A stretch of 63,704 bases of DNA, filler included, from Rozella allomycis CSF55 (lineage: Eukaryota): the NCBI GenBank assembly GCA_000442015.1. It is 21 parts of 21 records of this genome, joined end to end, with 100 filler letters (N's around TTAATTAATTAA, not from the genome) between each part and the next. Parts side by side here need not be neighbours in the genome. Positions count along the whole stretch, not along the records: positions 28,728 to 40,883 come from KE561278.1; 20 more parts are not named here. One strand, written 5' to 3'. Each line of letters starts with the position of its first letter. The stretch's first letter is position 1. The notes under the pieces were generated by a model that was not told the origin of the DNA, did not search any database, and saw only the letters and a list, made by a program, of their open reading frames with translations. Positions 78-58,732 of the stretch are shown here, one piece after another. The position numbers were made by a program, and so were the translations under genes.

Positions 78-1625
78 TTATTGAAGTTCAACTTCAACTT
101 CCTTGAGATTCGTTTCCCAAGTCTCGATATTCTATTTGAAATAATAAATGAATGTTACTGATTTGTAATAATTTATTTGTTCTTGAACATAGCTCTTAAT
201 GATGTGCTTCAAGTCTCTTTGTCGAACAGCATGAAATCTTTCCAATTCATCATTGACCAACTTTGAAATTGAAGATAGTTCATCAGCAACTTTTTGTTTC
301 TGTATTTCAAGCTAATTGAAGATGAATAAAATGTATACTTGGGTGATAATGTCTTTTGTTTTTGAAATGCCGTGTTTTCTAGACATTTCGGGTGAAGTAT
401 CAAGCATGTTACTCAAGTGATTAGTGAGGCTAGTAACGACGCTATTCTTCCTGGAAGCCACAGCGCCTTCAAGCTGAAGCAATTGATTTTGCTTTGTGAA
501 ATGTTCTTCTTGGATTGATTCGAGTTCCAATTGCTTAGCCCTTCGATAACGAAGAACATTCTTTCGTTTCATTTTAAGTTATCTCTTACTTTGACGCTTT
601 GACTGTAGAGCGCGTATTCATGCAAAGATTCACCAAAGCATTCTTCAAAATACGCGCCAAGGTTGTTTGTTGTTAAGTGAATGCCGTCAATCCCTTCGCC
701 AATTTTCTCAAGCGCAGACGATAAGTTCTTTTCTTCAAGACTGAAACCGTTAAATGATGCTCCCAAATCAGAATAATCTCCAGACAATTCAAACATCAAT
801 AAACTGAATTTTTACCTTGACATTTTCTTGAAATTCTTTTTTGTGTTTTATCAAGCGAATTCAAAGAATGACTGTAATATGAATTGTCATTTTCTATTTC
901 CATAAATTTAGGATCAGGATTTTTTAATTTAGACGATGAAGAAGCAGTCTTGTCCTTTTTTACATTCTCAGATGCCATAATGTCATTCTTGTTATCGTTA
1001 ATCTTAATTGAAATACCCAATTCTTATCTTCTTCCAAAAATCTATGGAACAAATGATGTGAACATAAGACTGGATGCTCTACCAGCCTATTAAGAAACGT
1101 TTGTAGCATTCTTTTTCTCTTTTCCGATATAGCTAAATCAATCTTTGATTTTGATGGTTTAGCGTAGCTCGCTAAAAATACATCAAATACTATTGTTACA
1201 CAATGAATGTTTTTCAGGAATCGGCGGAATGATAATTACTGGATGAAATAATCCCAAAACATTTCTAAGACTTTCAAAGTCTGAATATCTCCTCTTGACG
1301 CTAAAATTCTAAATCTCTACTCATTTGAATTTACCTTGAACGCAATTTGATAGAGGTAGTGGTTTCCAGTCCCATCAGTGTTCTTGTAAGCATCGACAAT
1401 CGAAATAACTTGCAATGGACCCGATGGGCATCTTTTTTTTTCATTGTGCTGGCTCAACAAACGGTCTACAGCACAACAAAACACATCTTTCTGGATTGGT
1501 TTAGGTTCTGCTTGTGCAGAAGTACTTGGTTGCGATGAAACAATGGAGGTTGTAAGATTCTCATAGTTAGAAGCGGCATTACCAGACGCAAATGCGGTGG
1601 TAGGAGTAGTATCAAATTCGTCCAT
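78..1625 (-). CDS. Sorting nexin, PX + BAR (SNX4/Snx41/Atg20-like), spliced
   Basis: PX motifs [12 protein letters not shown] and IIPPIPEKH, then [20 protein letters not shown] helices [14 protein letters not shown]; about 7 tiny introns join the ORF-track fragments. Confidence 0.85.
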
Positions 1626-7313: not shown

Positions 7314-9415
7314 TAGATTCATTATTTTCGACAAGAATTGGATTCATGATAGATAAAGCCTTTAATTGATTAAACCAAGGTTCATTTTCTAGAAAAGGTG
7401 TTACAATGGCCCCTTGGCATTTATCGGCCATTATTTTGTGGATTGTTTTCGTGATCAATTCTACTGGAACTTCAGCCCATACAATCTCATTTTTCCATGT
7501 TTTATTAAAACTATTCTTATCTGCTGTGTAGTATATGTTAATCTTATTGAAACCTGGTACTGTTAAGACTTCTAATGTGAAATGTTTATAATATTTTTGA
7601 ATCTTTTTGAAATTGTTATTTGATAGCAACCAATTAATTTCATTGATTGTTTGAACGGTCATAATGATTTGATTATCATCACTAATACTTAATGGATTGG
7701 AATCATATATTCGACTAGGTTTATCTGGTAAGATATTCAAGACTCCCGGCCGATGAATAATTTCAAAATCAAACTCTAACAAGATATCAATCCAATTATT
7801 CATCATAGCATTGACATGTTTTTGTGTAAAGAGATAAGATAGCGCGCGATGATCTGTTTAAAGTTTGAAGTGCACCCCGAATACATAGTTACGAAATTTG
7901 TCTAGCGCAAATATTATAGCCGATAATTCTCGCTTGGTCGCACTGTAGTTGCGTTCCCCTGCAGTCAATGCTCGTGAAGCAAAACAATTATACTGAATTT
8001 GATTATCATATTCCTGGTAAAGAACAGCACCTAGTCCTCTGTTTGATGCATCGGTAGCTATACAAAATGGATGGTTAAAGTCAGGATACTTCAAAATANA
8101 AATTTGATTATCATATTCCTGGTATAGAACAGAACCTAGTCCTCTGTTTGATACATCGGTAGCTATACAAAATGGATGGTTAAAGTCAGGATACTTCAAA
8201 ATAATCCGTTCCCACAGTATTCTACGTAGCTTCGCGTAAATATTTTCAAATTCTTTAGTCCATACAACGACTTTTGCTTTCTTAATTTATCAAGTGGTGC
8301 AGTTAAAGATGCATAATTTGGTATTAAATCTCTAAAATAATTAAAAAATCCCAATTGTTGTTCTATCATTTTTCCAGTTACTGGAGTTTTCCATTCATCC
8401 ATGATTAATAATTTTTCTGGTACCGCTTGAACTCCGTATTTGTTAATCTTAAAGCCTAAAATGTCTAGTTTCTCGTAAGCAAAACAACACTTTTCCAAGT
8501 TAATTTTCAATTTGATTTTGTTAAGTTCCTTAATGACAANTCCTAAAATGTCTAGTTCCTCGTATGCAAAACAACTCTTTTCCAAGTTAATTTTCAATTT
8601 GATTTTGTTAAGTTCCTTAATGACAATCTTTACATGTTCTAAATGTTCTTCGTAACTGTTAGAGAAAATAATTATATCATCGATATACTCATTCACAAAA
8701 GGAAACTTGCTAAGGTGTTTTGTCATAACCTTTTGAAATTCTGCGGGAATATTTTTGAACCCAAATGGTGCACCTTTAAAGATATATTGTTTTCCATTCC
8801 AAGTAAATGTAGTTTTAATTTGATCTTGCTGTTTTATTCTGAATTGATGAAAACCCGATTTAAGATCAATCTTGGTGAATACCTTCGCCCCTTTCAAAGA
8901 TTCTAAGATTTCTTTTATCAATGGAAGTGGATAGGTAATTGTTCTAGTGATTAGGTTGATGTGTCTCGGATCAAGACAAACTCTCCAGTCTTTTTGTTTT
9001 CCTGATATATCTTTTTTAGCAACAACCAATAACGAATAATTCCATTCCGAGTGACCTTTTAATTCTTTTATGAGCTTTGCTTCTTCCCATTTTTGAATTT
9101 GTTTGGTGACTATTGGACGCAGAGAGTGAGCTATTCTATATTGAGATTTAAATGCAGGTTTGTTGTCACCCGTTGCAATTTGAATTTCAGCATCTGGGAG
9201 AGTGCAAAAACCATTTATAGATTTGTTTGTATTTAAAAGAGGTTGAAGATGGTCAATCAAATATGTAGAGTATGCATCTGCTAAGAAGGAGAAATAGGTT
9301 GAAGTTGATTTATTGTCATCTAAGCTTTCGATGACTTTTGGAAAGGACGGTACAGGGCCTATGAATTTTGCTGGTGGAGTTTCGTCATTGGCCTGTTTGA
9401 TTTCCTTGATAGTTG
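7314..9415 (-). mobile_element. Ty3/Gypsy LTR-retrotransposon pol fragment (RT, RNase H, MTase-like domain), degenerate
   Basis: RT: WRVCLDPR, FTKIDLKSGFHQ, PFG, YIDD. RNase H: TDASNRGLGAVLYQ, NYSATKREL, TDHRAL. Frameshift near 8270 and in-frame TAA at 7858-7860. Confidence 0.92.
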
Positions 9416-9712
9416 NGTTTCACAAAGGCAGAAATGTTAAACACAACACGGAAGATTGCAAATCTTTGAAATACAAGAATCAGAAGTTGGAAAAAGCTAA
9501 AGAGAAAAATACTGACAAAGAANACAGATAATCATATCTTGATTATTGCCACGCCACTGTGCTATTTAAGCGTAATCAGATGAATAAAACCCTGGTTAAC
9601 TTTTAACGATTANNNNNNNNNNNNNNNNNNNNNNNNNNNNNNNNNNNNNNNNNNNNTTAATTAATTAANNNNNNNNNNNNNNNNNNNNNNNNNNNNNNNN
9701 NNNNNNNNNNNN

Positions 9713-28821: not shown

Positions 28822-31439
<2,618 letters not shown>

Positions 31440-31489
31440 ATGTTTTATATATTTTCTTTACTTGAATTGTTTACAAAACATTTTCTCTA

Positions 31490-33086
31490 ATGATGTTGGC
31501 AAATGATTCATTTGTTCCGTCTACTTTAAATTATTCCCAATTTTATCAAACAACTGGCCAATCTTCATCATATCAACAACAAATCTCATTTTCGATTTCA
31601 AAAAAGGAATTGTTCACCCCTTCAAATGGGTTCAAATCATTAATTAAAAAATTGAAGCATAATTTCAAAATCTCTCAGTAAGTTGAATCACATTTAATTG
31701 TTGCAGAATAAAATCTGAAATTAATGTCGAAGCAATTTCTTCATCAAAGCTGCTAATTATTGCAGCGCCATCTGAGAAATATTCATCTAAAGAGTTTGAT
31801 GCTCTGCATGCATTTATTGATCATGGAGGTGCTTTATTGTACTTGGGAACTGAAGGTACTGAAAAATCGAATTTTAACTACTTTTTGGAAGAGTTTGGCA
31901 TTTCAGTAAACTCTGGTACAAATATTAAAAGCATTAAAAATAGGTACACTTCATGCATGTATTTTATAAGATTCGGTGACAAGGACTTCATACTTTAAAT
32001 ATTTTCATCCAAAGGAAAACTTCATTTCAAACGGAATAATAAACAGAGAAATAAACCGCATAGCGGGAAAACAACCAAAATCAATGACTGAAAATGAAAA
32101 TGTTCTTGATGCATTACCATCAGCTAATAGAATTGGACGACAGAGTTTTAGCAACCAGTATGCAAACCAGCAATACAATTTTAGTGATTTGACTATGGTT
32201 TACCCATTCGGCTCTACAATAAATGTAGATAAGCCAAGTGTCCCAATAATATCAACAGGTAGTGCCTCATACCCTACAAACAGGCCGATCGGCGCAGTTT
32301 ACCACCAAGTAATAAACTTGATGCTTTATTTAAAAGTATGGCAAAGGCAAAATCGTGGTCTTGGGTTCGTGTCACATATTTAGTGATCAATATTTGGACA
32401 AGGAAGAAAATGGAAAGTTGTTTGACGCGATTATCAAGTTTCTATTAGACGGTAATACCAAGTTTAGAATTGAAGTAGACCATTTGTGTCTTGACTCGAT
32501 TGACGCGGACGATCCTGATGTAATTACGTTGTACGTTTGATATGCAGGTTTCCGATTACCATTATGTCCCCGATATATTTTCACATTCAGAACAAATTAA
32601 ATGTTGCATACAAGAAAGCGAAGAGCCTCCCAAGGACTTTAGAAAAATGTTCGATAAATCTCTGTTTAAGTTTGACATGAATCTATTTCCCAAGGTCTTG
32701 AAGGCTCATGAAGTAAGTATCACAACGATTAGACATCAAGGTATTAAAAGTGAAGCCAGTTCCTTTAACCTTAATAGAACCACAGGTAAATCTTTTTCAA
32801 GCTCCTAAAACAGTTTGAGTTGCCACTGCCTGAATTTGAACCCGCAGTTTTCCCACCTACTTTTAGATCCCTACCTCCGCCGCCACTTGAATTGTTTGAT
32901 TTAGATGAAGAATTTGCAACCAATGAAGAAAAACTTGCAAAACTGGCAAACAAATGTAGCTCAGATGATATTGACTATTTTATCAAAGAAGCCGGTAAAA
33001 TTTTTGGATTTTACAATGACGATTCCTTTGGAATTCTAGAAAAGGTTGTCCGTCAGATTATAGACTGGAAAAAAGTTAATATATAA
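31490..33086 (+). CDS. IFT52: Intraflagellar transport protein 52
   Basis: NFNYFLEEFGI, KYFHPKE, VYPFGSTINV, PQFELPLP, PAVFPPTFRSLPPPPLELFDLDEEF. Confidence 0.95.
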
Positions 33087-34032: not shown

Positions 34033-34124
34033 AGTGGAGTTGGTGTCTAAGGGCTATAATTAGTATCACTACCTACGAAGTCAAAATCTGATTAAACGGA
34101 AATTGAAACAATGATAGAGTTTAT

Positions 34125-34451
34125 TTAACGACTACTTATCAAAGCTGCTAAAAAATTAGAAATTGGCATATATCCTTTTCTAATTAACCGCATTTCATAG
34201 TTCTCTGTGTACCCTTCGTTTAGATTTCGTCCATATTCTTCAGTATCATATGAGCAATTAACTTCATTGACATCATATTTAACCTCTCTATTTAGTGAAG
34301 GACTGATATGTTCGGTTATTGGTTTTCTATTTTCTATATCTTCTTCGTCGTCACTATCAGCGTTTAAAAGTATGCTCTGATGTGCAAGTCGCATTTCTTT
34401 GAATTTCGGTTGCTCCTCGTCTGAGCTGTTAAATTCCCTCTTCTTTTTCAA
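34125..34451 (-). CDS. Hypothetical small acidic protein
   Basis: ORF with AATAAA-like sequence at the stop; start uncertain. Confidence 0.45.
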   Translation of the reverse strand: MKKKREFNSSDEEQPKFKEMRLAHQSILLNADSDDEEDIENRKPITEHISPSLNREVKYDVNEVNCSYDTEEYGRNLNEGYTENYEMRLIRKGYMPISNFLAALISSR

Positions 34452-35994: not shown

Positions 35995-38900
35995 ATGTTT
36001 AGTCTAGAAAATTTTACCGATCTTCTTCCTCCGTTTGCTGATGAGCAAAGCAAACAGCTTGATTTAAAGGTAAGATATATACTAGAATAGGATAAGATCA
36101 AGCAAAAGCATGCGGAGATGCAAAAATTGGAGCATCGAATTGAGGAACAAAAAAGGCGCCGAGATTTGATGAAAGAACACATGAAGAATATACGAACAGA
36201 ATTCGGCCAATGTCAATCATTGAAGGATGCAAAGAAGAGAGAGATGGACACAGAAAACAACTTGAGACAAATTGCGGAACGACAAATTGGCCGTATGCAT
36301 CAAGAAATGAGACGCTTATTAAATGAAATTGATGGTGTTACTGGTCATGTAAATATTAATGCACTATCTAATTTAACAGATAAACAATTTGCAAAGGAAT
36401 ATCCATCAATCCAATGAGAACATTGAAAAGATGCGACAAAGTATGAAAATGAGCAAAGAAGAACTTGATGAATGGCTGAAGATACAAAATGAAAAAGAGG
36501 AGGATATGATGGCGATGGCAAAGTATAGCAGACAAGATGATACAAGAATTAAAGAAATCATGTTGAAACTAGAGAAGATGTTGGGTGAAGTACACAAGAA
36601 GAAACAAGAATTGTCTCTGGAAGTTACAGAAACGCAGGCGGTTCAAATAGAATTAGCCAAAACAACAGAAATGTTCCATTCTCTTCACAATGAAAGACAA
36701 CAATTGATAAAAAGATGGGAGAATTTGATAGCTAATTTTACAGAGAAAGATGCTGATATTGAAAGCAAAAGAAACGAAGTAGAGCAACTTCAAGTATGCA
36801 AGCCTGAATCCAAATTTTAGAAATTAATTAACGAAAAAGTTGCTATTGTAAATGAAAAGCAAGCATTTTTAAACGAACAAATAGACAGAGCGGAATCCAT
36901 CGAAAAGAAGATTGAATTGACTGATCGGCTCGTGGGAAAAATCAGGTAACGAAAGAAAAGAAATATTAGAAGGTTGGAAGAACAAGAGTCCAGTTTGTCC
37001 TTGAAAGAATTCCAAGATGAAGTTGAAATGATAAGAAGCACCTTGAACAAGAGTAAAAATGCATTTTCTATTTTACTAAAGCTACAATCGAGTTGAATTC
37101 CAAAAAAGTGGAAATAAACAACCTAAGAAATGATCTTCAAAAAAGGCAAGACAGATTAGAAAAGGAAAACAAACAACGAAAAGAAGCTAAAAATAGACTC
37201 GAACAAGCCACAGACAAAACAGTCTCATTAGAGTCCAAAGCGGCGTCATTACAAGATATATTGAAGCAAGATGAAGAGAAATTTAAAGGACTTGAAAAGG
37301 AAATCAAAAATTTGAGAGAAATCCGTATAGTTTATTTTTTTCGCTAAATAGAATTCAAAAAGACGCAACAAGTATTTCAATTTAGAAAGGACGAGCAAGA
37401 CTTGACGGCTGAAATTTCTGGTGCTGAAGCCACCATCAAGAATTGGCATTCTAAAATATCAAAGTATAATATGGGAAATGATAATATAGGCTTGAAGATC
37501 AAATTCAAAAACAGCTGGAATTGATTTACAATCAAGATTTCCAGATCCAATTATTAGAAAGGAAGATTAGAAAAATCAAAGGAGAAAAATCAGAAGAAGA
37601 AAAAGAAGTTCTCAATGAAAAAATAAAAGAGTTGACATTGGCATTAGCAGAGTCTAAAAAGAAGCATTCATTGCTAAGTCAGCAATACAAAAAGTCTTTG
37701 GATGAAATTCGTAGGTTTACCAAACAATACGAAAACTTATTGAAGGAACGTAAAGGTAAAGTTGATATGTCTTAATTCTAAAATAGGTAATTAATGTTTA
37801 TGATGATAATGAGGTATAATTATTTGATGGCAAAATAAAGGTGTGGACCAAGCTTTGGATGATATAACATTGTATAATGATAGTGCCCAACGCCAGCTAG
37901 TTTCAAAGATTAAGGAAAAGGAAGAATTTATGGTCGAAGAAAATCTTTTAAGATTAGAATTGCAAAGATTACGAACATTTTTATCGTCAAGAGCAGATCA
38001 GGTAATTAAACTGAATGGAAATAAAAGGTCTATTCATTAGAGGCAAGACAGGTTCAATTGCAATTAGCCCTTGAAGAAAGGCAAAAGGAAATCGATTTGA
38101 ATCAAGAAATTACGAAATCACAAATAAAATTTGCTCAAGAAGAAAAGTAAACGGAGATTTGGAGTTTCAAAAGGCAACAAGTTAAGTTACAGATACGAGA
38201 GAAGAATGCGAAAATTCAAAAATTGAAAAACAAATATGATGTGTTGATTGCGAAAATAAATTCAGATGAAGAAGAACATTCTCAAGCTTACTATGTAATT
38301 AAAGCATCTCAAGTAAATAATTTAATAAATTGTAATTAGCGAAGAGAGGAGCTGCAAAGGGAAGGTGATGCGTTGGATGCTAAAATAAGAAAGGCAGAGG
38401 CGGAGATAAAGGCGTTAGAAAACACTTTGAATCTCTTAAACACAAGGAATTCAAAATACAGAAATACGTAATTGAATGTAATTGTTGTGGACAAGACTTA
38501 CAATGCCAGACAACAATTCAGAGGAAGTGAAACAAAAAATGATTTTAGAGCAGCAAATAAAATCTGCAGTTGACAAACTCCAATCAAAAAAGTCCGACTT
38601 GGAAAAGATTCAAAAAGAAATTGAAGGATTGGATTCTTCTCTACAGATTTATCATCAAGAAGAATCCAACCTGTCCAGTTCTATAGATGAGCTTCAAAGC
38701 AAGTTAGATTCACTAATCAAAGATATCGAAGACCAAGAAGCAAGAAAACAAAGATCAACTCTCTTAATAAAAAAGTATTCTAAAAATGATTTATAAAAAA
38801 AGGATTGCGAATAATCTAAAAAACCAAGAAAAGGATTTGTATGAAATGGCTTCACAGGATATCCTCTTAAAGGAACTAAAAGAAAACAATAATCAATTGT

Positions 38901-39431
38901 TACTTCAAATAGAATCTCTTTCTTCCCAATTTCCAGAAATAAAATTGGCTCTAAACTCATACTATGAACAAGTAATTCATTGAAAGTCCAATTTATTTAA
39001 AGAATGGTTTGATTGTGAACCCAGACAAGCTGAATGCATTGCCATCAAAAAGGTCTGCAAGTAGGCATAGCGTATCATCTAAACCTTCAACAAGGTAAAA
39101 TTTAAACCTCAAAAATAAAAGAAATCAAAGCCGCGCTGCTTTAGTTTCACTTGATGTTGCTTTCACTAAAGAACAACCTAGCACAATATCCCCCTCATTG
39201 GAGAATACTACAAATCATTCAAGACCTCCATCAAATTTGAGACAACTAAAATTTTCAAAAAGGTCCACGCCTATCCAACAAAACGAAAGAGAATACATTT
39301 CAAAAAGTAATTCAATGGATAAATTAGCGATTCACGCATCTACCCCGAGAAGTGTTGTAACAAAAGATGGCGACAAAATAGAATCTGATGCATTAAAAGA
39401 ACCATTAAAAGAAGCTAATGTTACTCAATAA
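35995..39431 (+). CDS. CCDC39: Axonemal ruler protein CCDC39
   Basis: Long coiled coil; [64 protein letters not shown]. Confidence 0.92.
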
Positions 39432-39465
39432 TAAAGTTTTCAAATGATGGTTTATTTCAGTTTAC

Positions 39466-40253
39466 TCAAATTCCTCCCATATATTTACCACCAGCGGCAA
39501 ATGCATCAGCTCCTAAAACGGCTTCTTTTTGTAATTTAATGAATAATACTGCGGAAGCAGCTAATCCAAGTACCTTTTGTAAAGTTAGATAGTAAACTAT
39601 ACCTGGAAGAAGGCCATAGTAATCGCTACACTTCCAATTGCATCCAAATGTGAGAATACTTGTTGCTTCATAACCAACATACAAGGTCTTTGAAAACCAA
39701 AGTTTGCATCTGTTGAACAGTCAGTAGGAACCGCCAATTCTGTAATGTTTTTAAATCCACAACATTTAAACTTTTGTTCCAAATATCTATCAAAAAATTG
39801 GCACATGCATACCGTATTGATGATGGATCGTTACTGATGCTAGCCTTCCAAACCTGCTCAACTGCTCTTTCAATATCACTTGCACGGGATAGCGCAACAC
39901 TTCCAATGATTACTTGAATTAGAAATATGGCACATAAAAGGCCAAAGAACTTAAAATTCAATGCATATAAATTTACTATTTTAAGAGATTTGATGTGTTC
40001 CTTGACAGCTGCAACTATTCCAAGAGTAGATATTATACATGCAAGAAATCCAATACCAATAAGACCACCAAATATAGATTGAGTAGCTACTCCGGTGCGA
40101 TCGTCTTGAACTGCAAGGCCAGTAATACCACCTCCAATAAGAAGCAACCCACTGAGCTAATTGATAAGAGAACAAATTAATTACCAAAGTTATAAGATTG
40201 GTAACTACTAAAATATACTTAAACACACGAAAAGTGAATAAAGCTGGAAGCAT
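39466..40253 (-). CDS. Tetraspanin (4 introns)
   Basis: Four TM helices and the CCG motif (LEQKFKCCGF). Confidence 0.88.
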
Positions 40254-48563: not shown

Positions 48564-48692
48564 AAACACAGGCACACCGACAACAGTCAAATCCCTTAAA
48601 GTGAGGGTCAGCAAAATCGTTAATTCAGGGTAAAAATGATTATTTTTTGAATTTATAAATTTATTAGTGAAGCAAAGCAAAAATGATAACCA

Positions 48693-50874
48693 TCATTTTC
48701 TCGTTTGGTGTCTACGCAACATTTCTACAACCTTCGCATTACCGAAACAGGAAGCCCAACGAATAGCATAATTGTCATCTGCACTTGGATCAACTCTAGA
48801 ATCTTCAGACAAAATTTTCACAATATCAGCATGGCCGTTTCTGGAAGCCCAACGAATACAATAATTGTCATATGCACTTGGATCTACTCTAGCATCTGCC
48901 AGAAGAATTTTAACAATATCTGCATAACCGTACACGGATGCACATTGAATAGCATAATTGTCATCTGCACTTGGATCTACCCTAACATCTGCCAGTAAAA
49001 TTTTGAAAACATCTATGTGGCCAAAATGGGCAGCCCGACGAATAGCATAATTGTCGTCTGCACTTGGATCTACTCTAGAATCTTCAAGCAAAATTTTCAC
49101 AACATCTGCATGACCGTTTTCGGAAGCCCGACGAATAGCATAATTGTCGCCTGCACTTGGATCTACTCTAGAATCTTCAAGCAAAATTTTCACAACATCT
49201 GCATGACCGTTTTCGGAAGCCCGAAGAATAGCAAAATTGCCACGTGCACTTGGATCTACTCTAGAATCTTCAAGCAAAATTTTCACAATATCAGCATAGC
49301 CTTTTTCGGAAGCTCGGCGAATAGCACGATTTTGTTTAACACTTGGATCAACTCTAGAATCTTCAAGTAAAATTTTAACAGTATCTGCATGACCGTACTC
49401 GGAAGCATGTTGAATAGCATAATTGTNAATAATTGTCATCTGCACTTGGATCCACTCTAGAATCTTCAAGCAAAAATTTCACAATATCTGCATGGCCATT
49501 ACTGGAAGCAAACCGAATAGCATAATTGTCATCTGCACTTGGATCGACTCCTGACTTCGTCAAANCTGCAAGTAGAATTTTAACAATATCTGCATGACCG
49601 TTCTCGGATCGACGTCGAATAGCGAAATTGCCACGTGCACTTGGATCTACTCTAGAATCTTCAAGCAAAATTTTCACAACATCTGCATAACCGTTTTCGG
49701 AAGCCCGAAGAATAGCAAAATTGCCACGTGCACTTGGATCTACTCTAGAATCTTCAAGCAAAATTTTCACAATATCAGCATAGCCTTTTTCGGAAGCCCG
49801 GCGAATAGAATAATTGTCATCTGCACTTGGATCTACTCTATAATCTTCAAGTAAAATTTTAACAGTATCTGCATGACCGTACTCGGAAGCATGTTGAATA
49901 GCATCTGCAAGTAGAATTTTAACAATATCTGCATGACCGTTCTCGGATCGACGTCGAATAGCGAAATTGCCACGTGCACTTGGATCTACTCTAGAATCTT
50001 CAAGCAAAATTTTCACAACATCTGCATGACCGTACTCGGAAGCCCGAAGAATAGCAAAATTGCCACGTGCACTTGGATCTACTCTAGAATCTTCAAGCAA
50101 AATTTTCACAATATCAGCATAGCCTTTTTCGGAAGCCCGGCGAATAGCATAATTGTCATCTGCACTTGGATCTACTCTATAATCTTCAAGTAAAATTTTC
50201 ACAATATCAGCATAGCCTTTTTCGGAAGCTCGGCGAATAGCACGATTTTGTTTAACACTTGGATCAACTCTAGAATCTTCAAGTAAAATTTTAACAGTAT
50301 CTGCATGACCGTACTCGGAAGCATGTTGAATAGCATAATTGTCATCTGCACTTGGATCGACTCCTGACTTCGTCAAATAATATTTAAAAGGCTTGCTTTG
50401 TCCATTTCTGAGAGATAGTCCTATTGGAAAGTTCCTATCTGCCAAAGGCTCTGGTTTAATATCTTCATCCTCAACACTACAGAGCTTCCGTTTACAACTT
50501 ATCTTCATCACCATGCATTGTAATATATGCAAAAGTCCGTATTGACATGCGAATTGAAAAGCATAGTTAGCAGCATTCTGAGATAAATCGTTTTGTTTCA
50601 TAAAGTTTATAAAACTAACGAACCTTTTAATGTAACCGATCTTGTTAAGGATATCCGAGCACATATCTTTCGTTAACATTTTCCCGCATATGTGTTTGAT
50701 TAGATATTGAATAACATATGGACATTTCCATGAGCTAATGAATTCTGGAGCTTGATGAAGGATCAAGTCAAAGCATAGAGAGCGAATCTGACGTGATGTT
50801 CTAGACATTTCTTTCACATCATTTAGGCTTAATTGCGACAAAATTACCAGCCAAATCTCATTTGGGTAGTGCAT
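48693..50874 (-). CDS. F-box + ankyrin-repeat protein (repeat number unreliable because of N junctions)
   Basis: N-terminal YPNEIWLVILSQLSLNDVKEMSRTSRQIRSLC; many 34-aa repeats RVDPSADDNYAIRRASENGHADVVKILLEDS. Confidence 0.85.
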
Positions 50875-58000: not shown

Positions 58001-58084
58001 TGTAAATTTGACAGAGCAATTTTGGAACGGCCACCTAACATTTTTACGTATTTTTTTACAAAATGGCTTCCCGAAACTTGGTAA
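55016..58084 (+). CDS. Large intronless putative secreted helical protein with degenerate ankyrin-like repeats
   Basis: 1022-aa ORF; signal-peptide-like MKSLIFFSILLISIICF from the second Met; VASFDNYILIREAS resembles the local ankyrin family. Confidence 0.7.
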   Translation: MKKITPLSRLQCPLLQMKSLIFFSILLISIICFDIKQYIRDDKVEKVVELVDNASYYEKRRYLTAKVLSSCFRNPSEAKIEIFNYLLKSVDKIGKLDVILTENNFQLLYDLMKMTLTSKECTSLCRISVTLANLFASSQSVRKGLSEVVLRTTKGDLSVDNVGYLVMPILRSIHKCNKLNIEIRFFGGFLTKLVEENWFLMMQNIIEEEKNSEFVHAMIEFTEKEKEMIDEKFARTLIESKHRNFYMLHLLKIVEYFSLEERFVTVLGVPELRKAVEEDEFEEFDKIQRLVKRMRIEKHVASFDNYILIREASRKEILDFFKILVEWDYVNSLASEKYEIIKNAFNDKRLLNYVCENSSLPTIIMKSQISKENKVFQFLLENCQVNDMALGNIMDLIIKNNDRTIYEIFKSVEAGKRFINENFHTYILMSASKEKIMFFYDLFIIKMHLPFTILESDFQVSLNKAIIKSDDPLSLLGIVSKFYGLKIYPIFFNYDNYNLVYSHILTSEGDLVLKTWFINVVCQKEETINDFIFSINFDKASILHEFMVDQKYYRYIETLPLYVRILLMDRKGFEYLFHKDNLFFMEFYQSTFKNHLDNAMSSINKLRNEENVYEWVMDYSRNFKNYLSYHTLKAFAEISSHIHNDNDFNSQIADILQSHWGIINQDVKYIAELLKQETPTEENSSYYPPIVQRFKVGPEGDEKQIIDYEIKYLANVVENPLSFWRQLYHLNRIYSALIVVDELVYFIKYNDFIKENFLVMWIERLAEVYPQLKSEIVKSKNFLSLLKSENISLVLNFIYSHLFTDFYELRLSSNLADDCGDPFIYEYWVHLIRMYHFKPPHKLYLFADMIFLRYPLCSQGNFKEFLTFTISRMRAALFILEYEFSKFNLIHAIENIENSLTSINLKFHPFFKRVLNLNDADNFSYILTVILKIDFFQKIDQNIIEPKVYSPKQIVYSCHFHKDFHVYFRDFTLVGKHYTADDLGLDLHFFLNDQRCKFDRAILERPPNIFTYFFTKWLPETW

Positions 58085-58732
58085 ATAAATATGTTTAAAT
58101 CAGTCATTGTCGGATGGGGAGTTTACGAGGCCTGTTGAGTTTTTATTTTCAGGTTTGTATTTTCTGAATCCTCTTCTTTTTTTAGACGCACACTGTCGAT
58201 CGTTTAAGGGGCGTTTGGGTTTCGAATCTTTTTTTTAATGTGTCGTACCAGGGATTCTCATCCCACCCTTCTTAGAATAATTATCAAAGNNNNNNNNNNN
58301 NNNNNNNNNNNNNNNNNNNNNNNNNNNNNNNNNTTAATTAATTAANNNNNNNNNNNNNNNNNNNNNNNNNNNNNNNNNNNNNNNNNNNNATAATGCAAAC
58401 AATTGAGATTTATAATGACAATAAATTAAGATGTATTCTAAAGATTTCAATTTCATGCGAAAATGCAAATTTGTAATCCGTATAGCTTTTTTTTTATTTT
58501 TGAACGTAAATTGTATCAAATTCGATTATTCGAGTGTGAATGGATAATGATCGTTAGATCCATTCTATATATGTCACGAAAACGGAAAAACAACAAAAAT
58601 ATGACATCGTATTTAATAAAATTTAAAGCTTTATTAAATTATTGGCATTTAGATGATTTATTTCTCTGCTTCTTTGTATTTTCACGAAAAGTTCCAGCCA
58701 CGCCATTTACAAGGGTCTGAAAATTTTTTGAA

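What the first reader, a model, noticed from the sequence alone, without database searches (positions are those of the whole stretch)
31916..31970. Two back-to-back micro-introns (28+27 nt) in IFT52
Seen: AAC TCT G|gtacaaatattaaaagcattaaaaatag|gtacacttcatgcatgtattttataag|AT TCG GTG. Removing both restores VNSDSVTRTSYFKYFHPKE, matching conserved IFT52. Removing only the first gives GGT ACA CTT CAT GCA TGT ATT TTA TAA. Both units start GTACA and sit after a G in phase 1, as in CCDC39, so excising one unit regenerates G|GTA. This is an independent second case of the chained-intron architecture. The shared start hints at origin by intron duplication or insertion at an existing splice junction (inference).
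Basis: partly seen in the sequence, partly recalled or inferred. Interest (0 to 1): 0.85.

Follow-up and report, generated by a model that had tools for sequence, protein, structure and literature searches.

The report
Two abutting mini-introns in Rozella IFT52
In the fungal parasite Rozella allomycis, whose introns are almost all about 27 bases long, the 55-base gap in the cilium gene IFT52 is built from two such mini-introns placed head to tail with no exon between them, which suggests that longer gaps in this genome are removed one unit at a time.

Summary
Bases 31916-31943 (28 nt) and 31944-31970 (27 nt) both run GTACA...AG, abut at AG|GT, and follow a phase-1 G. Only removal of all 55 nt gives ...GISVNS|DSVTRTSYFKYFHPKE, colinear with 4 of 4 IFT52 homologues. 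The contig is from the Rozella allomycis CSF55 reference assembly. The public model EPZ31224.1 removes the same 55 nt, necessarily as one intron.

Introns here are GTA...AG: 142 of 169 parsed introns are 24-33 nt, with the mode at 27. A random 55-nt intron splits into two such units in 0.4-1.4% of simulations. The 85-nt gap in CCDC39 (37756-37840 = 31+27+27) splits into three in 0.0025-0.02%.

My best reading (0.6) is that these are autonomous mini-introns sharing a zero-length exon, removed in separate reactions. That is mechanistically like zero-nucleotide recursive splicing, but at 55-85 nt rather than tens of kb.

No RNA evidence, whole genome or close relative was available, so stepwise removal is inferred. 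The units are no more alike than random intron pairs, so an origin by duplication is unsupported apart from the shared GTACA. This is a new variant of a known kind.

The parts
31490..33086 (+). IFT52 gene (CDS from the ATG to the stop), Rozella allomycis O9G_005194
   Evidence: Pfam finds IFT52_GIFT, IFT52_central and Itf52_C.
31915..31915 (+). Last exon base G, first base of the split Asp codon (G + AT); phase-1 position
   Evidence: Read directly from the sequence; translation.
31916..31943 (+). Unit 1: 28-nt mini-intron GTACAAAT...AAATAG
   Evidence: Donor PWM score 3.2 (6th percentile of 123 units); acceptor score 8.4 (98th percentile). AT content 0.82. Its AG is the first AG at 25 nt or more from its GTA (one search rule).
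31942..31946 (+). Internal junction AG|GTA: the 3' splice site of unit 1 abuts the 5' splice site of unit 2 (zero-length exon)
   Evidence: AGGTA occurs 0 times at 2,323 positions inside the other unit introns.
31944..31970 (+). Unit 2: 27-nt mini-intron GTACACTT...TATAAG
   Evidence: Donor score 4.2 (13th percentile); acceptor score 6.2 (74th percentile). AT content 0.70.
31971..32308 (+). Downstream exon, (D)SVTRTSYFKYFHPKE...
   Evidence: tblastn of 4 homologues and of the public model.
37756..37786 (+). CCDC39 chain, unit 1 (31 nt)
   Evidence: The Rozella model P0018 reads KERKG|V across 37756-37840.
37787..37813 (+). CCDC39 chain, unit 2 (27 nt)
37814..37840 (+). CCDC39 chain, unit 3 (27 nt)
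   Evidence: Fish CCDC39 proteins P0019 and P0020 keep the same number of residues between their anchors (4 and 6) as the window does after removal of all 85 nt.

Best explanation
The 55 nt are two complete, autonomous spliceosomal mini-introns of the normal Rozella allomycis type (GTA...AG, about 27 nt, AT-rich). They lie head to tail, so the exon between them has zero length.

Inferred mechanism: the spliceosome pairs a GTA donor with the first AG that lies 25 nt or more downstream. From the donor at 31916 that AG is at 31942-31943, so unit 1 is cut out first. This joins the exon G to GTACAC..., an intact donor, and a second reaction removes unit 2 using the AG at 31969-31970. Unit 2 could equally go first, because both units are complete in the primary transcript. 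A direct reaction between the outer sites would give the same mRNA.

Only full removal gives IFT52. Every intermediate carries a premature stop.

What is shown: the anatomy, the need to remove exactly 55 nt, the length rule of this genome, and that the pattern is not chance. What is inferred: that the internal sites are actually used, and in what order.
For: 1. Exactly 55 nt must go. 4 of 4 homologues are colinear across the junction, the public model agrees, and the Pfam GIFT domain runs in one stretch across it.

2. Unit length is the norm. 142 of 169 introns parsed in gene models scoring 40 bits or more are 24-33 nt, with the mode at 27. In the two genes with public protein support there are 11 single introns of 26-29 nt plus the 55-nt and 85-nt composites.

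3. In 121 of 123 GTA units the acceptor is the first AG at 25 nt or more from the donor.

4. Chance of decomposability is 0.4-1.4% for 55 nt and 10-83 in 400,000 for the 85-nt CCDC39 gap. Both homology-supported gaps of 50 nt or more in the window are decomposable, and all 3 internal junctions read AG|GTA.

5. Splice-site scores of the five units fall within the range of ordinary units (6th-98th percentile). Their AT content is 0.70-0.82.

6. No RNA structure could shorten the gap: folding z-scores are +0.5 and +1.1.

7. GTA is about 3-fold depleted in exons (16 against 53 expected; 98 against 275), as expected if it is a potent donor signal.

8. Abutment exceeds random placement of unit introns: 0.38 junctions expected, 3 seen, P = 0.007.
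Against: There is no RNA evidence of any kind for intermediates or small lariats. The public annotation models one 55-nt intron.

The first-AG count rests on my own parse, which used a length prior, so it is partly circular. That set of 123 units also includes some from over-extended models.

The rule is not sufficient. Of 16 exonic GTAs in IFT52 and CCDC39, 6 have their first AG at 25-33 nt. At least 4 of these must stay in the mRNA.

A 38-nt intron (815..778) is supported by a single Pfam Vps5 stretch across its junction. Length is therefore not rigidly capped at about 31 nt, and one-step removal of 55 nt cannot be excluded.

The donor scores of the two IFT52 units are low (6th and 13th percentile).

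The sample is only two loci on one 12-kb contig.
Confidence: 0.6

Rival explanations
1. There is one 55-nt intron, removed in a single step between the outer sites (donor 31916, acceptor 31970). The internal AG|GTA is a leftover of how the intron grew, for instance a 28-nt insertion or duplication at the old donor, and is not used.
For: The public model has a single intron here. A 38-nt intron shows that some length tolerance exists. GGTACA occurs at both 31915-31920 and 31943-31948, like the short direct repeats left by an insertion. A rare C at +4 is shared by both units (8 of 123 units overall).
Against: It would need the AG at +28 to be skipped, yet only 2 of 123 units do not use the first AG at 25 nt or more. 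The units are otherwise unrelated (score 3; 36% of random pairs score as high), yet all 3 internal junctions in the two chains keep a perfect AG|GTA. That argues the sites are maintained. No fold brings the outer sites together.
Confidence: 0.25
2. It is an ordinary 55-nt intron whose internal AGGT is a coincidence.
For: AGGT does occur by chance: 3 times in 2,446 interior positions and 293 times in 127,402 window positions.
Against: The probability is 0.4-1.4% for this intron. The only other homology-supported long gap (85 nt) has two such sites at unit spacing, with probability 2.5e-5 to 2e-4. An exhaustive two-unit scan gave 29 candidates, and in none of the other 28 were both units GTA-initiated and AT-rich.
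Confidence: 0.03
3. The chain is a regulatory device. Needing two or three splicing events slows or gates production of cilium mRNAs (IFT52, CCDC39) that are wanted only in zoospores, with stop-containing intermediates being degraded.
For: Both chains found lie in cilium genes on one contig. Every intermediate has a premature stop.
Against: Two genes are too few to show any link with function. There are no expression data. The neighbouring EF-G gene and the other introns of the same two genes are ordinary.
Confidence: 0.08
4. It is an assembly or annotation artefact: an uncollapsed duplication at a join, or a hidden micro-exon.
For: 9 of 17 single-N joins in the window carry uncollapsed repeats. 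Public models of this genome mis-handle tiny introns elsewhere.
Against: There is no N within 700 nt of the site, and the units are not copies of each other. A protein model from a second, single-cell assembly (P0002) skips the same stretch. Homologues leave no room for extra residues.
Confidence: 0.02

Closest known systems
Zero-nucleotide-exon recursive splicing at ratchet points (Drosophila Ubx and about 200 further sites). Seen only as the abstract start of bioRxiv 10.1101/006163 and as listings of PMC6110456 and PMC10156609.
   Same: A 3' splice site directly abuts a 5' splice site (AG|GT) inside an intervening sequence. Removing the upstream part regenerates a donor. The gap can be removed in several reactions without leaving any exon sequence.
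   Different: The known cases cut very long introns (kilobases to tens of kilobases) into pieces. Here the whole gap is 55-85 nt and each piece is the genome's normal intron size. There is no pyrimidine tract or clear branch motif, and no RNA proof.
Stwintrons (spliceosomal twin introns) of filamentous fungi. Passages of PMC5639578 read; abstract starts of PMC9024468, PMC12403724 and PMC8469720 seen.
   Same: A complex intervening sequence in a fungus-related lineage that is removed by consecutive U2-type reactions. The described examples are also often phase 1.
   Different: [quoted passage not shown] Here the units abut, both are complete in the primary transcript, and either order would work.
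Ordinary R. allomycis mini-introns. Passages of PMC6349667 mention two introns of about 30 nt in the S23 gene. The 23-52-nt microsporidian introns are recalled, not checked.
   Same: Each unit has the same ends, length and composition as the roughly 140 single introns in the window.
   Different: Single introns are flanked by coding exons. Here two (or three) share a boundary.
Intron gain flanked by short direct repeats (double-strand-break repair model in Daphnia; tandem AGGT duplication model).
   Same: GGTACA flanks unit 1 on both sides (31915-31920 and 31943-31948). Such a duplication of the donor plus about 22 nt of filler would create a new unit-length intron at once.
   Different: Most of the repeat is the splice consensus itself. 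There is no comparative evidence of a recent gain, and the units are otherwise unrelated.

Membership tests
U2-type GT-AG mini-intron of R. allomycis | Starts GTA, ends AG, 24-33 nt long, AT-rich | tested here: met
   Unit 1 is 28 nt with AT 0.82. Unit 2 is 27 nt with AT 0.70. PWM scores fall within the range of 123 units. The 55 nt taken as a whole lies outside the 24-33 nt range that holds 142 of 169 parsed introns.
U2-type GT-AG mini-intron of R. allomycis | Removal restores the reading frame and colinearity with homologues | tested here: met
   Met only for both units together. Either unit alone leaves a stop.
U2-type GT-AG mini-intron of R. allomycis | Excision seen in RNA | not testable with these tools
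   Only one RNA run was listed, with next to none of the words, and nothing was laid on the site.
Zero-nucleotide-exon recursive splicing | Juxtaposed AG|GT inside the intervening sequence, with a donor regenerated after the first step | tested here: met
   AG|GTA lies at 31942-31946. After removal of unit 1 the junction reads G|GTACAC.
Zero-nucleotide-exon recursive splicing | The host intron is very long (kilobases) | tested here: not met
   The gaps here are 55 nt, and 85 nt in CCDC39.
Zero-nucleotide-exon recursive splicing | Intermediates, lariats or a sawtooth read pattern | not testable with these tools
   No usable RNA data.
Stwintron | [quoted passage not shown] | tested here: not met
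   Unit 2's donor GTACAC and unit 1's acceptor TAG are both intact in the unspliced sequence. No [D1,2] reading fits: 31917 is T and 31944 is G. The definition was taken from PMC5639578.
Tandem duplicate of one intron | The units are similar in sequence | tested here: not met
   The global alignment score is 3, and 36% of 7,503 intron pairs score as high or higher. The CCDC39 unit pairs score 4, 2 and 6 (27%, 48% and 12%). Only GTACA is shared.
Introner-like repeated intron family | Many near-identical copies at other intron sites | tested here: not met
   The best pair among the 123 units in the window scores 17, and no family is visible. The window is only 63.7 kb, so this test is weak.

The most novel reading that the evidence does not exclude
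The R. allomycis spliceosome works as a ruler: a GTA donor is paired with the first AG about 25-31 nt downstream. It therefore cannot take out a long intron in one piece. Every longer intervening sequence in this genome would then have to be a head-to-tail chain of unit introns removed by obligate recursive splicing through zero-length exons. Intron lengths genome-wide would be quantised, with peaks near 27, 55 and 83 nt. New units would arise preferentially at existing splice junctions.
Probability: 0.3. Interest if true: 0.85.

Novelty: new variant of a known kind. Interest (0 to 1): 0.62.

Why it matters
If the internal sites are used, this is recursive (zero-length-exon) splicing at the opposite end of the size scale from where it is known. 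It would be a way of living with a spliceosome tuned to one very short intron length, not a way of handling huge introns.

That makes an old question directly testable with public data: what sets intron length in genomes with ultra-short introns, and is there a hard upper limit? The reference genome of this organism is already deposited. A histogram of intron lengths, plus a check for AG|GT at unit spacing, would settle it.

It also bears on how introns are gained, because three of three internal junctions lie exactly at a splice boundary. There is a practical consequence for annotation too. Gene models of this genome and of its relatives merge chains into single introns and miss in-frame 27-nt introns.

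Tried and rejected
Whole genome: none is held for this window, so no genome-wide length histogram could be made.

RNA: no RNA holder was listed. The one run offered (X1, a metatranscriptome) put only 30-33-nt scraps on the contig and nothing at 31916-31970 or 37756-37840.

Relatives: a metagenome scan with an 8-sequence IFT52 alignment returned 80 loci, all at 53% identity or less. 80 of 80 read straight through the junction. Many may be transcript contigs and none is a close Rozella relative, so nothing can be said about the age of the intron position.

A third chain proposed by my parser (39629..39603 + 39602..39574, minus strand) was rejected. The first 'unit' is in frame, has no stop, and encodes SVAITMAFFQ, part of the last membrane helix of a tetraspanin-like protein.

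An 89-nt gap (34135..34047, minus strand) with AG|GTAG 26 nt from its 3' end was set aside. The downstream ORF has its own Met, 20 residues before its ubiquitin domain, followed by an AN1 finger, and the upstream ORF ends in a stop. It is probably a spacer between two genes.

Of the 24 parsed introns longer than 33 nt, I inspected 14 by hand and judged most of them unsupported: one is read-through of a retroelement with a stop (7892..7854), three lie past natural stop codons (48728..48595, 58081-58152, 39420-39460), and others sit in weak or antisense models; the exceptions are the 38-nt intron 815..778, which I kept, and the 48-nt call at 34135..34088, treated above with the 89-nt gap. The other 10 lie in over-extended or antisense parts of models and were not examined one by one.

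Branch-site motif search: none was found. Hairpin shortening of the gap: none. Duplication origin: not supported.

Literature: searches, and passages read, turned up no description of chained mini-introns in Rozella or in any other organism with tiny introns. Supplementary tables, for example per-species intron lengths in PMC8476143, are closed and might hold relevant numbers.

One search timed out and was rerun in faster code. In one search the first IFT52 intron was entered one base off (31679-31707 instead of 31678-31706), so its two printed scores are meaningless. Nothing else depends on it.

Full report
What the window is

The 63,704-base window is a pseudomolecule. Twenty linkers of the form N44-TTAATTAATTAA-N44 join 21 short contigs. 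The finding lies on the contig at 28728-40883.

The organism uses the standard genetic code: ORFs reach 1025 codons with all three stops read as stops. An exon next to the finding is 91% identical to a Rozella allomycis protein. The cluster look-up then showed that EPZ31224.1 (O9G_005194, 466 aa) comes from a contig of 12,156 bases, exactly the length of this contig. That protein matches the window's exons at 100%. The window is therefore R. allomycis CSF55 reference sequence. This organism is a zoosporic parasite on the lineage leading to Microsporidia.

The observation

The exon ends at G31915. Unit 1 is 31916-31943 (28 nt). Unit 2 is 31944-31970 (27 nt). The exon resumes at 31971. Both units begin GTACA and end AG, and the junction between them reads AG|GTA.

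Removal of all 55 nt gives ...EEFGISVNSDSVTRTSYFKYFHPKE. Removal of either unit alone, or of neither, runs into a stop.

In 4 of 4 homologues compared (a second Rozella model, Batrachochytrium, Sorochytrium, Allomyces), the residues on the two sides are consecutive. The Pfam IFT52_GIFT domain covers residues 32-287 of the public protein in one stretch. So exactly these 55 nt are an intervening sequence. The public model removes them too, necessarily as a single intron.

Introns of this genome

ORF-joining candidates showed a sharp class of GTA...AG introns of 26-31 nt. I trained a donor matrix, an acceptor matrix and a length term on 52 such candidates. I then parsed every contig on both strands with a dynamic programme that allows introns of 18-150 nt and also allows introns to follow one another directly.

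In gene models scoring 40 bits or more there are 169 introns. Of these, 142 are 24-33 nt (mode 27), 3 are shorter and 24 are longer.

The parse over-extends at gene ends and on antisense strands. I inspected 14 of the 24 long calls by hand and judged most of them unsupported: one is read-through of a retroelement with a stop, three lie beyond natural stop codons, and others sit in weak models or at contig edges. I kept the 38-nt intron at 815..778. The 48-nt call at 34135..34088 lies in an 89-nt gap between two large ORFs that is probably a spacer between two genes.

The one longer intron with some support is 38 nt (815..778). With it removed, the sorting-nexin model P0026 matches the Vps5 domain in one stretch across the junction.

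In the two genes backed by public proteins the picture is clean: 11 single introns of 26-29 nt, plus one gap of 55 nt and one of 85 nt.

A paper on microsporidian introns mentions in passing that R. allomycis has two introns of about 30 nt in S23 (passages of PMC6349667). I found nothing in print on the length distribution.

The second chain

The 85-nt gap in CCDC39 (37756-37840) consists of three units of 31, 27 and 27 nt, again in phase 1 after a G, with AG|GTA at both internal joins. The Rozella model P0018 reads KERKG|V across it. Two fish CCDC39 proteins keep exactly the same number of residues between anchors (4 and 6) as the window does after full removal. A third gave overlapping matches and is uninformative. 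All seven partial-removal products contain stops.

Is it chance?

I simulated 400,000 introns with a first-order model of intron interiors. A 55-mer can be cut into two GT..AG parts of 24-33 nt in 1.4% of cases (0.4% if both parts must start GTA). An 85-mer can be cut into three parts in 83 cases (10 with GTA). AGGTA occurs at none of 2,323 positions inside the single units. Both homology-supported gaps of 50 nt or more in the window are decomposable, so random sequence does not explain the pattern.

A different null is that unit introns simply sit at independent random places. That predicts 0.38 abutting junctions in the parsed models against 3 seen (P = 0.007). It also predicts about 10 nested pairs, of which I saw none.

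An exhaustive scan for two-unit chains that join ORFs gave 29 candidates. In the other 28 the units are not both GTA-initiated and AT-rich (mostly the first 'unit' is GC-richer sequence with a non-GTA start). The three-unit CCDC39 chain does not appear because no pair of its units restores the frame. A third chain suggested by the parser was rejected because its first unit encodes part of a membrane helix.

How it most likely works

The splice signals are minimal. At the 5' end there is GTA, then mostly A. At the 3' end there is an A-rich run, then T or A, then AG. No branch-site motif emerged.

In 121 of 123 GTA units the acceptor is the first AG at least 25 nt from the donor. Earlier AGs, up to position 24, are skipped. 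GTA is the rarest arrangement of G, T and A in exons (16 against 53 expected; 98 against 275 in seven long ORFs). That fits a strong donor signal that coding sequence avoids, although general TA avoidance contributes.

Under such a 'donor plus first AG beyond a minimum distance' rule, the donor at 31916 would pair with the AG at 31942-31943. The product G|GTACAC is again a donor, and the next AG at 25 nt or more is the true exon boundary. The same logic removes the CCDC39 gap in three steps.

Because each unit is complete in the primary transcript, the order is not forced, and a direct reaction between the outer sites would give the same mRNA. No RNA fold brings the outer sites together (z-scores +0.5 and +1.1).

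I put 0.6 on the reading that the internal sites are really used.

The caveats are substantial. There is no RNA evidence. The first-AG count comes from a parse that had a length prior. Four exonic GTA sites fit the rule yet must stay in the mRNA. A 38-nt intron shows some tolerance of length. The two IFT52 donors score low.

Origin

Units within a chain are no more alike than random intron pairs: 36%, 27%, 48% and 12% of background pairs score at least as high. So there is no sign of a recent tandem duplication and no repeated intron family in the window.

The hint that remains is that GGTACA stands on both sides of unit 1 (31915-31920 and 31943-31948), with the rare C at +4 (8 of 123 units). 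A staggered break at the old donor, filled with about 22 nt, would create a new unit-length intron in one event. This is inference only.

Homologues show no missing residues, so a shrunken exon between two old introns is unlikely.

Comparison with what is known

Functionally this is closest to zero-nucleotide-exon recursive splicing. It shares the AG|GT juxtaposition and the regenerated donor. It fails the defining context of very long host introns, and intermediates could not be tested.

It is not a stwintron. No splice motif of one unit is interrupted by the other (definition from PMC5639578).

Each unit passes as an ordinary Rozella mini-intron.

Eight literature searches and the passages read found no report of chained mini-introns.

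Verdict

The 'two introns' reading is the best-supported one, but it is unproven without RNA. It is a new variant of a known kind. The bold version, a ruler-like spliceosome with quantised intron lengths genome-wide, is testable at once on the public genome.

Noticed in passing
window 32452-32478 (+): An in-frame, stop-free 27-nt GTA...TAG segment is kept as coding (GNTKFRIEV) in both public IFT52 models. It is a 9-residue insertion relative to 3 of 3 fungal homologues, so it is probably an unannotated intron.
   Followed up: partly
window 32158-32184 (+): An in-frame 27-nt GTA...TAG segment is removed in the single-cell model P0002 but kept in the reference model P0025. The region is variable in homologues, so its status is open.
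   Followed up: partly
The exon after it begins GTG, so the final junction again reads G|GT.
   Followed up: yes
whole window; e.g. 2387-2486: The window is a pseudomolecule of 21 contigs joined by N44-TTAATTAATTAA-N44 linkers. Neighbouring contigs are not necessarily adjacent in the genome.
   Followed up: yes
single N positions, e.g. 31156, 5943, 30665: At 9 of 17 single-N positions the 20 nt left of the N recur within 200 nt to the right. These are uncollapsed overlaps at joins, and they break reading frames (for example in the EF-G gene near 31156).
   Followed up: partly
window 7315-9535 (-): There is a retroelement reverse-transcriptase/RNase H reading frame with an in-frame stop (...KFRNYVFGVHFKL*TDHRALSYL...). 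The parser mistook the stop region for a 39-nt intron.
   Followed up: no
window 34047-34135 (-): An 89-nt gap lies between two large ORFs and has AG|GTAG 26 nt from its 3' end. The downstream ORF has its own Met, a ubiquitin-like domain and an AN1 finger, so this is probably a spacer between two genes. If the ORFs are one gene, it would be a 63+26 chain with an over-long first unit.
   Followed up: partly
window 78-1625 (-): In this sorting-nexin (PX-BAR) gene the public model P0026 loses half the PX domain. Two mini-introns found by the parse (1334..1309, 1199..1172) restore [14 protein letters not shown]..., as in the paralogue P0027. A 38-nt intron (815..778) is the longest one with support.
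   Followed up: partly
window 31440-31489: Only about 50 nt separate the stop of the mitochondrial EF-G gene from the ATG of IFT52 on the same strand.
   Followed up: no
exons of IFT52, CCDC39 and seven long ORFs: GTA is about 3-fold under-represented in coding sequence and is rarer than TAG. The modal intron length of 27 is a multiple of three, so in-frame introns are common here.
   Followed up: partly
window 39332-40253 (-) and 39400-39600 (+): A tetraspanin-like gene converges on the 3' end of CCDC39, with very little or no spacer between them.
   Followed up: no
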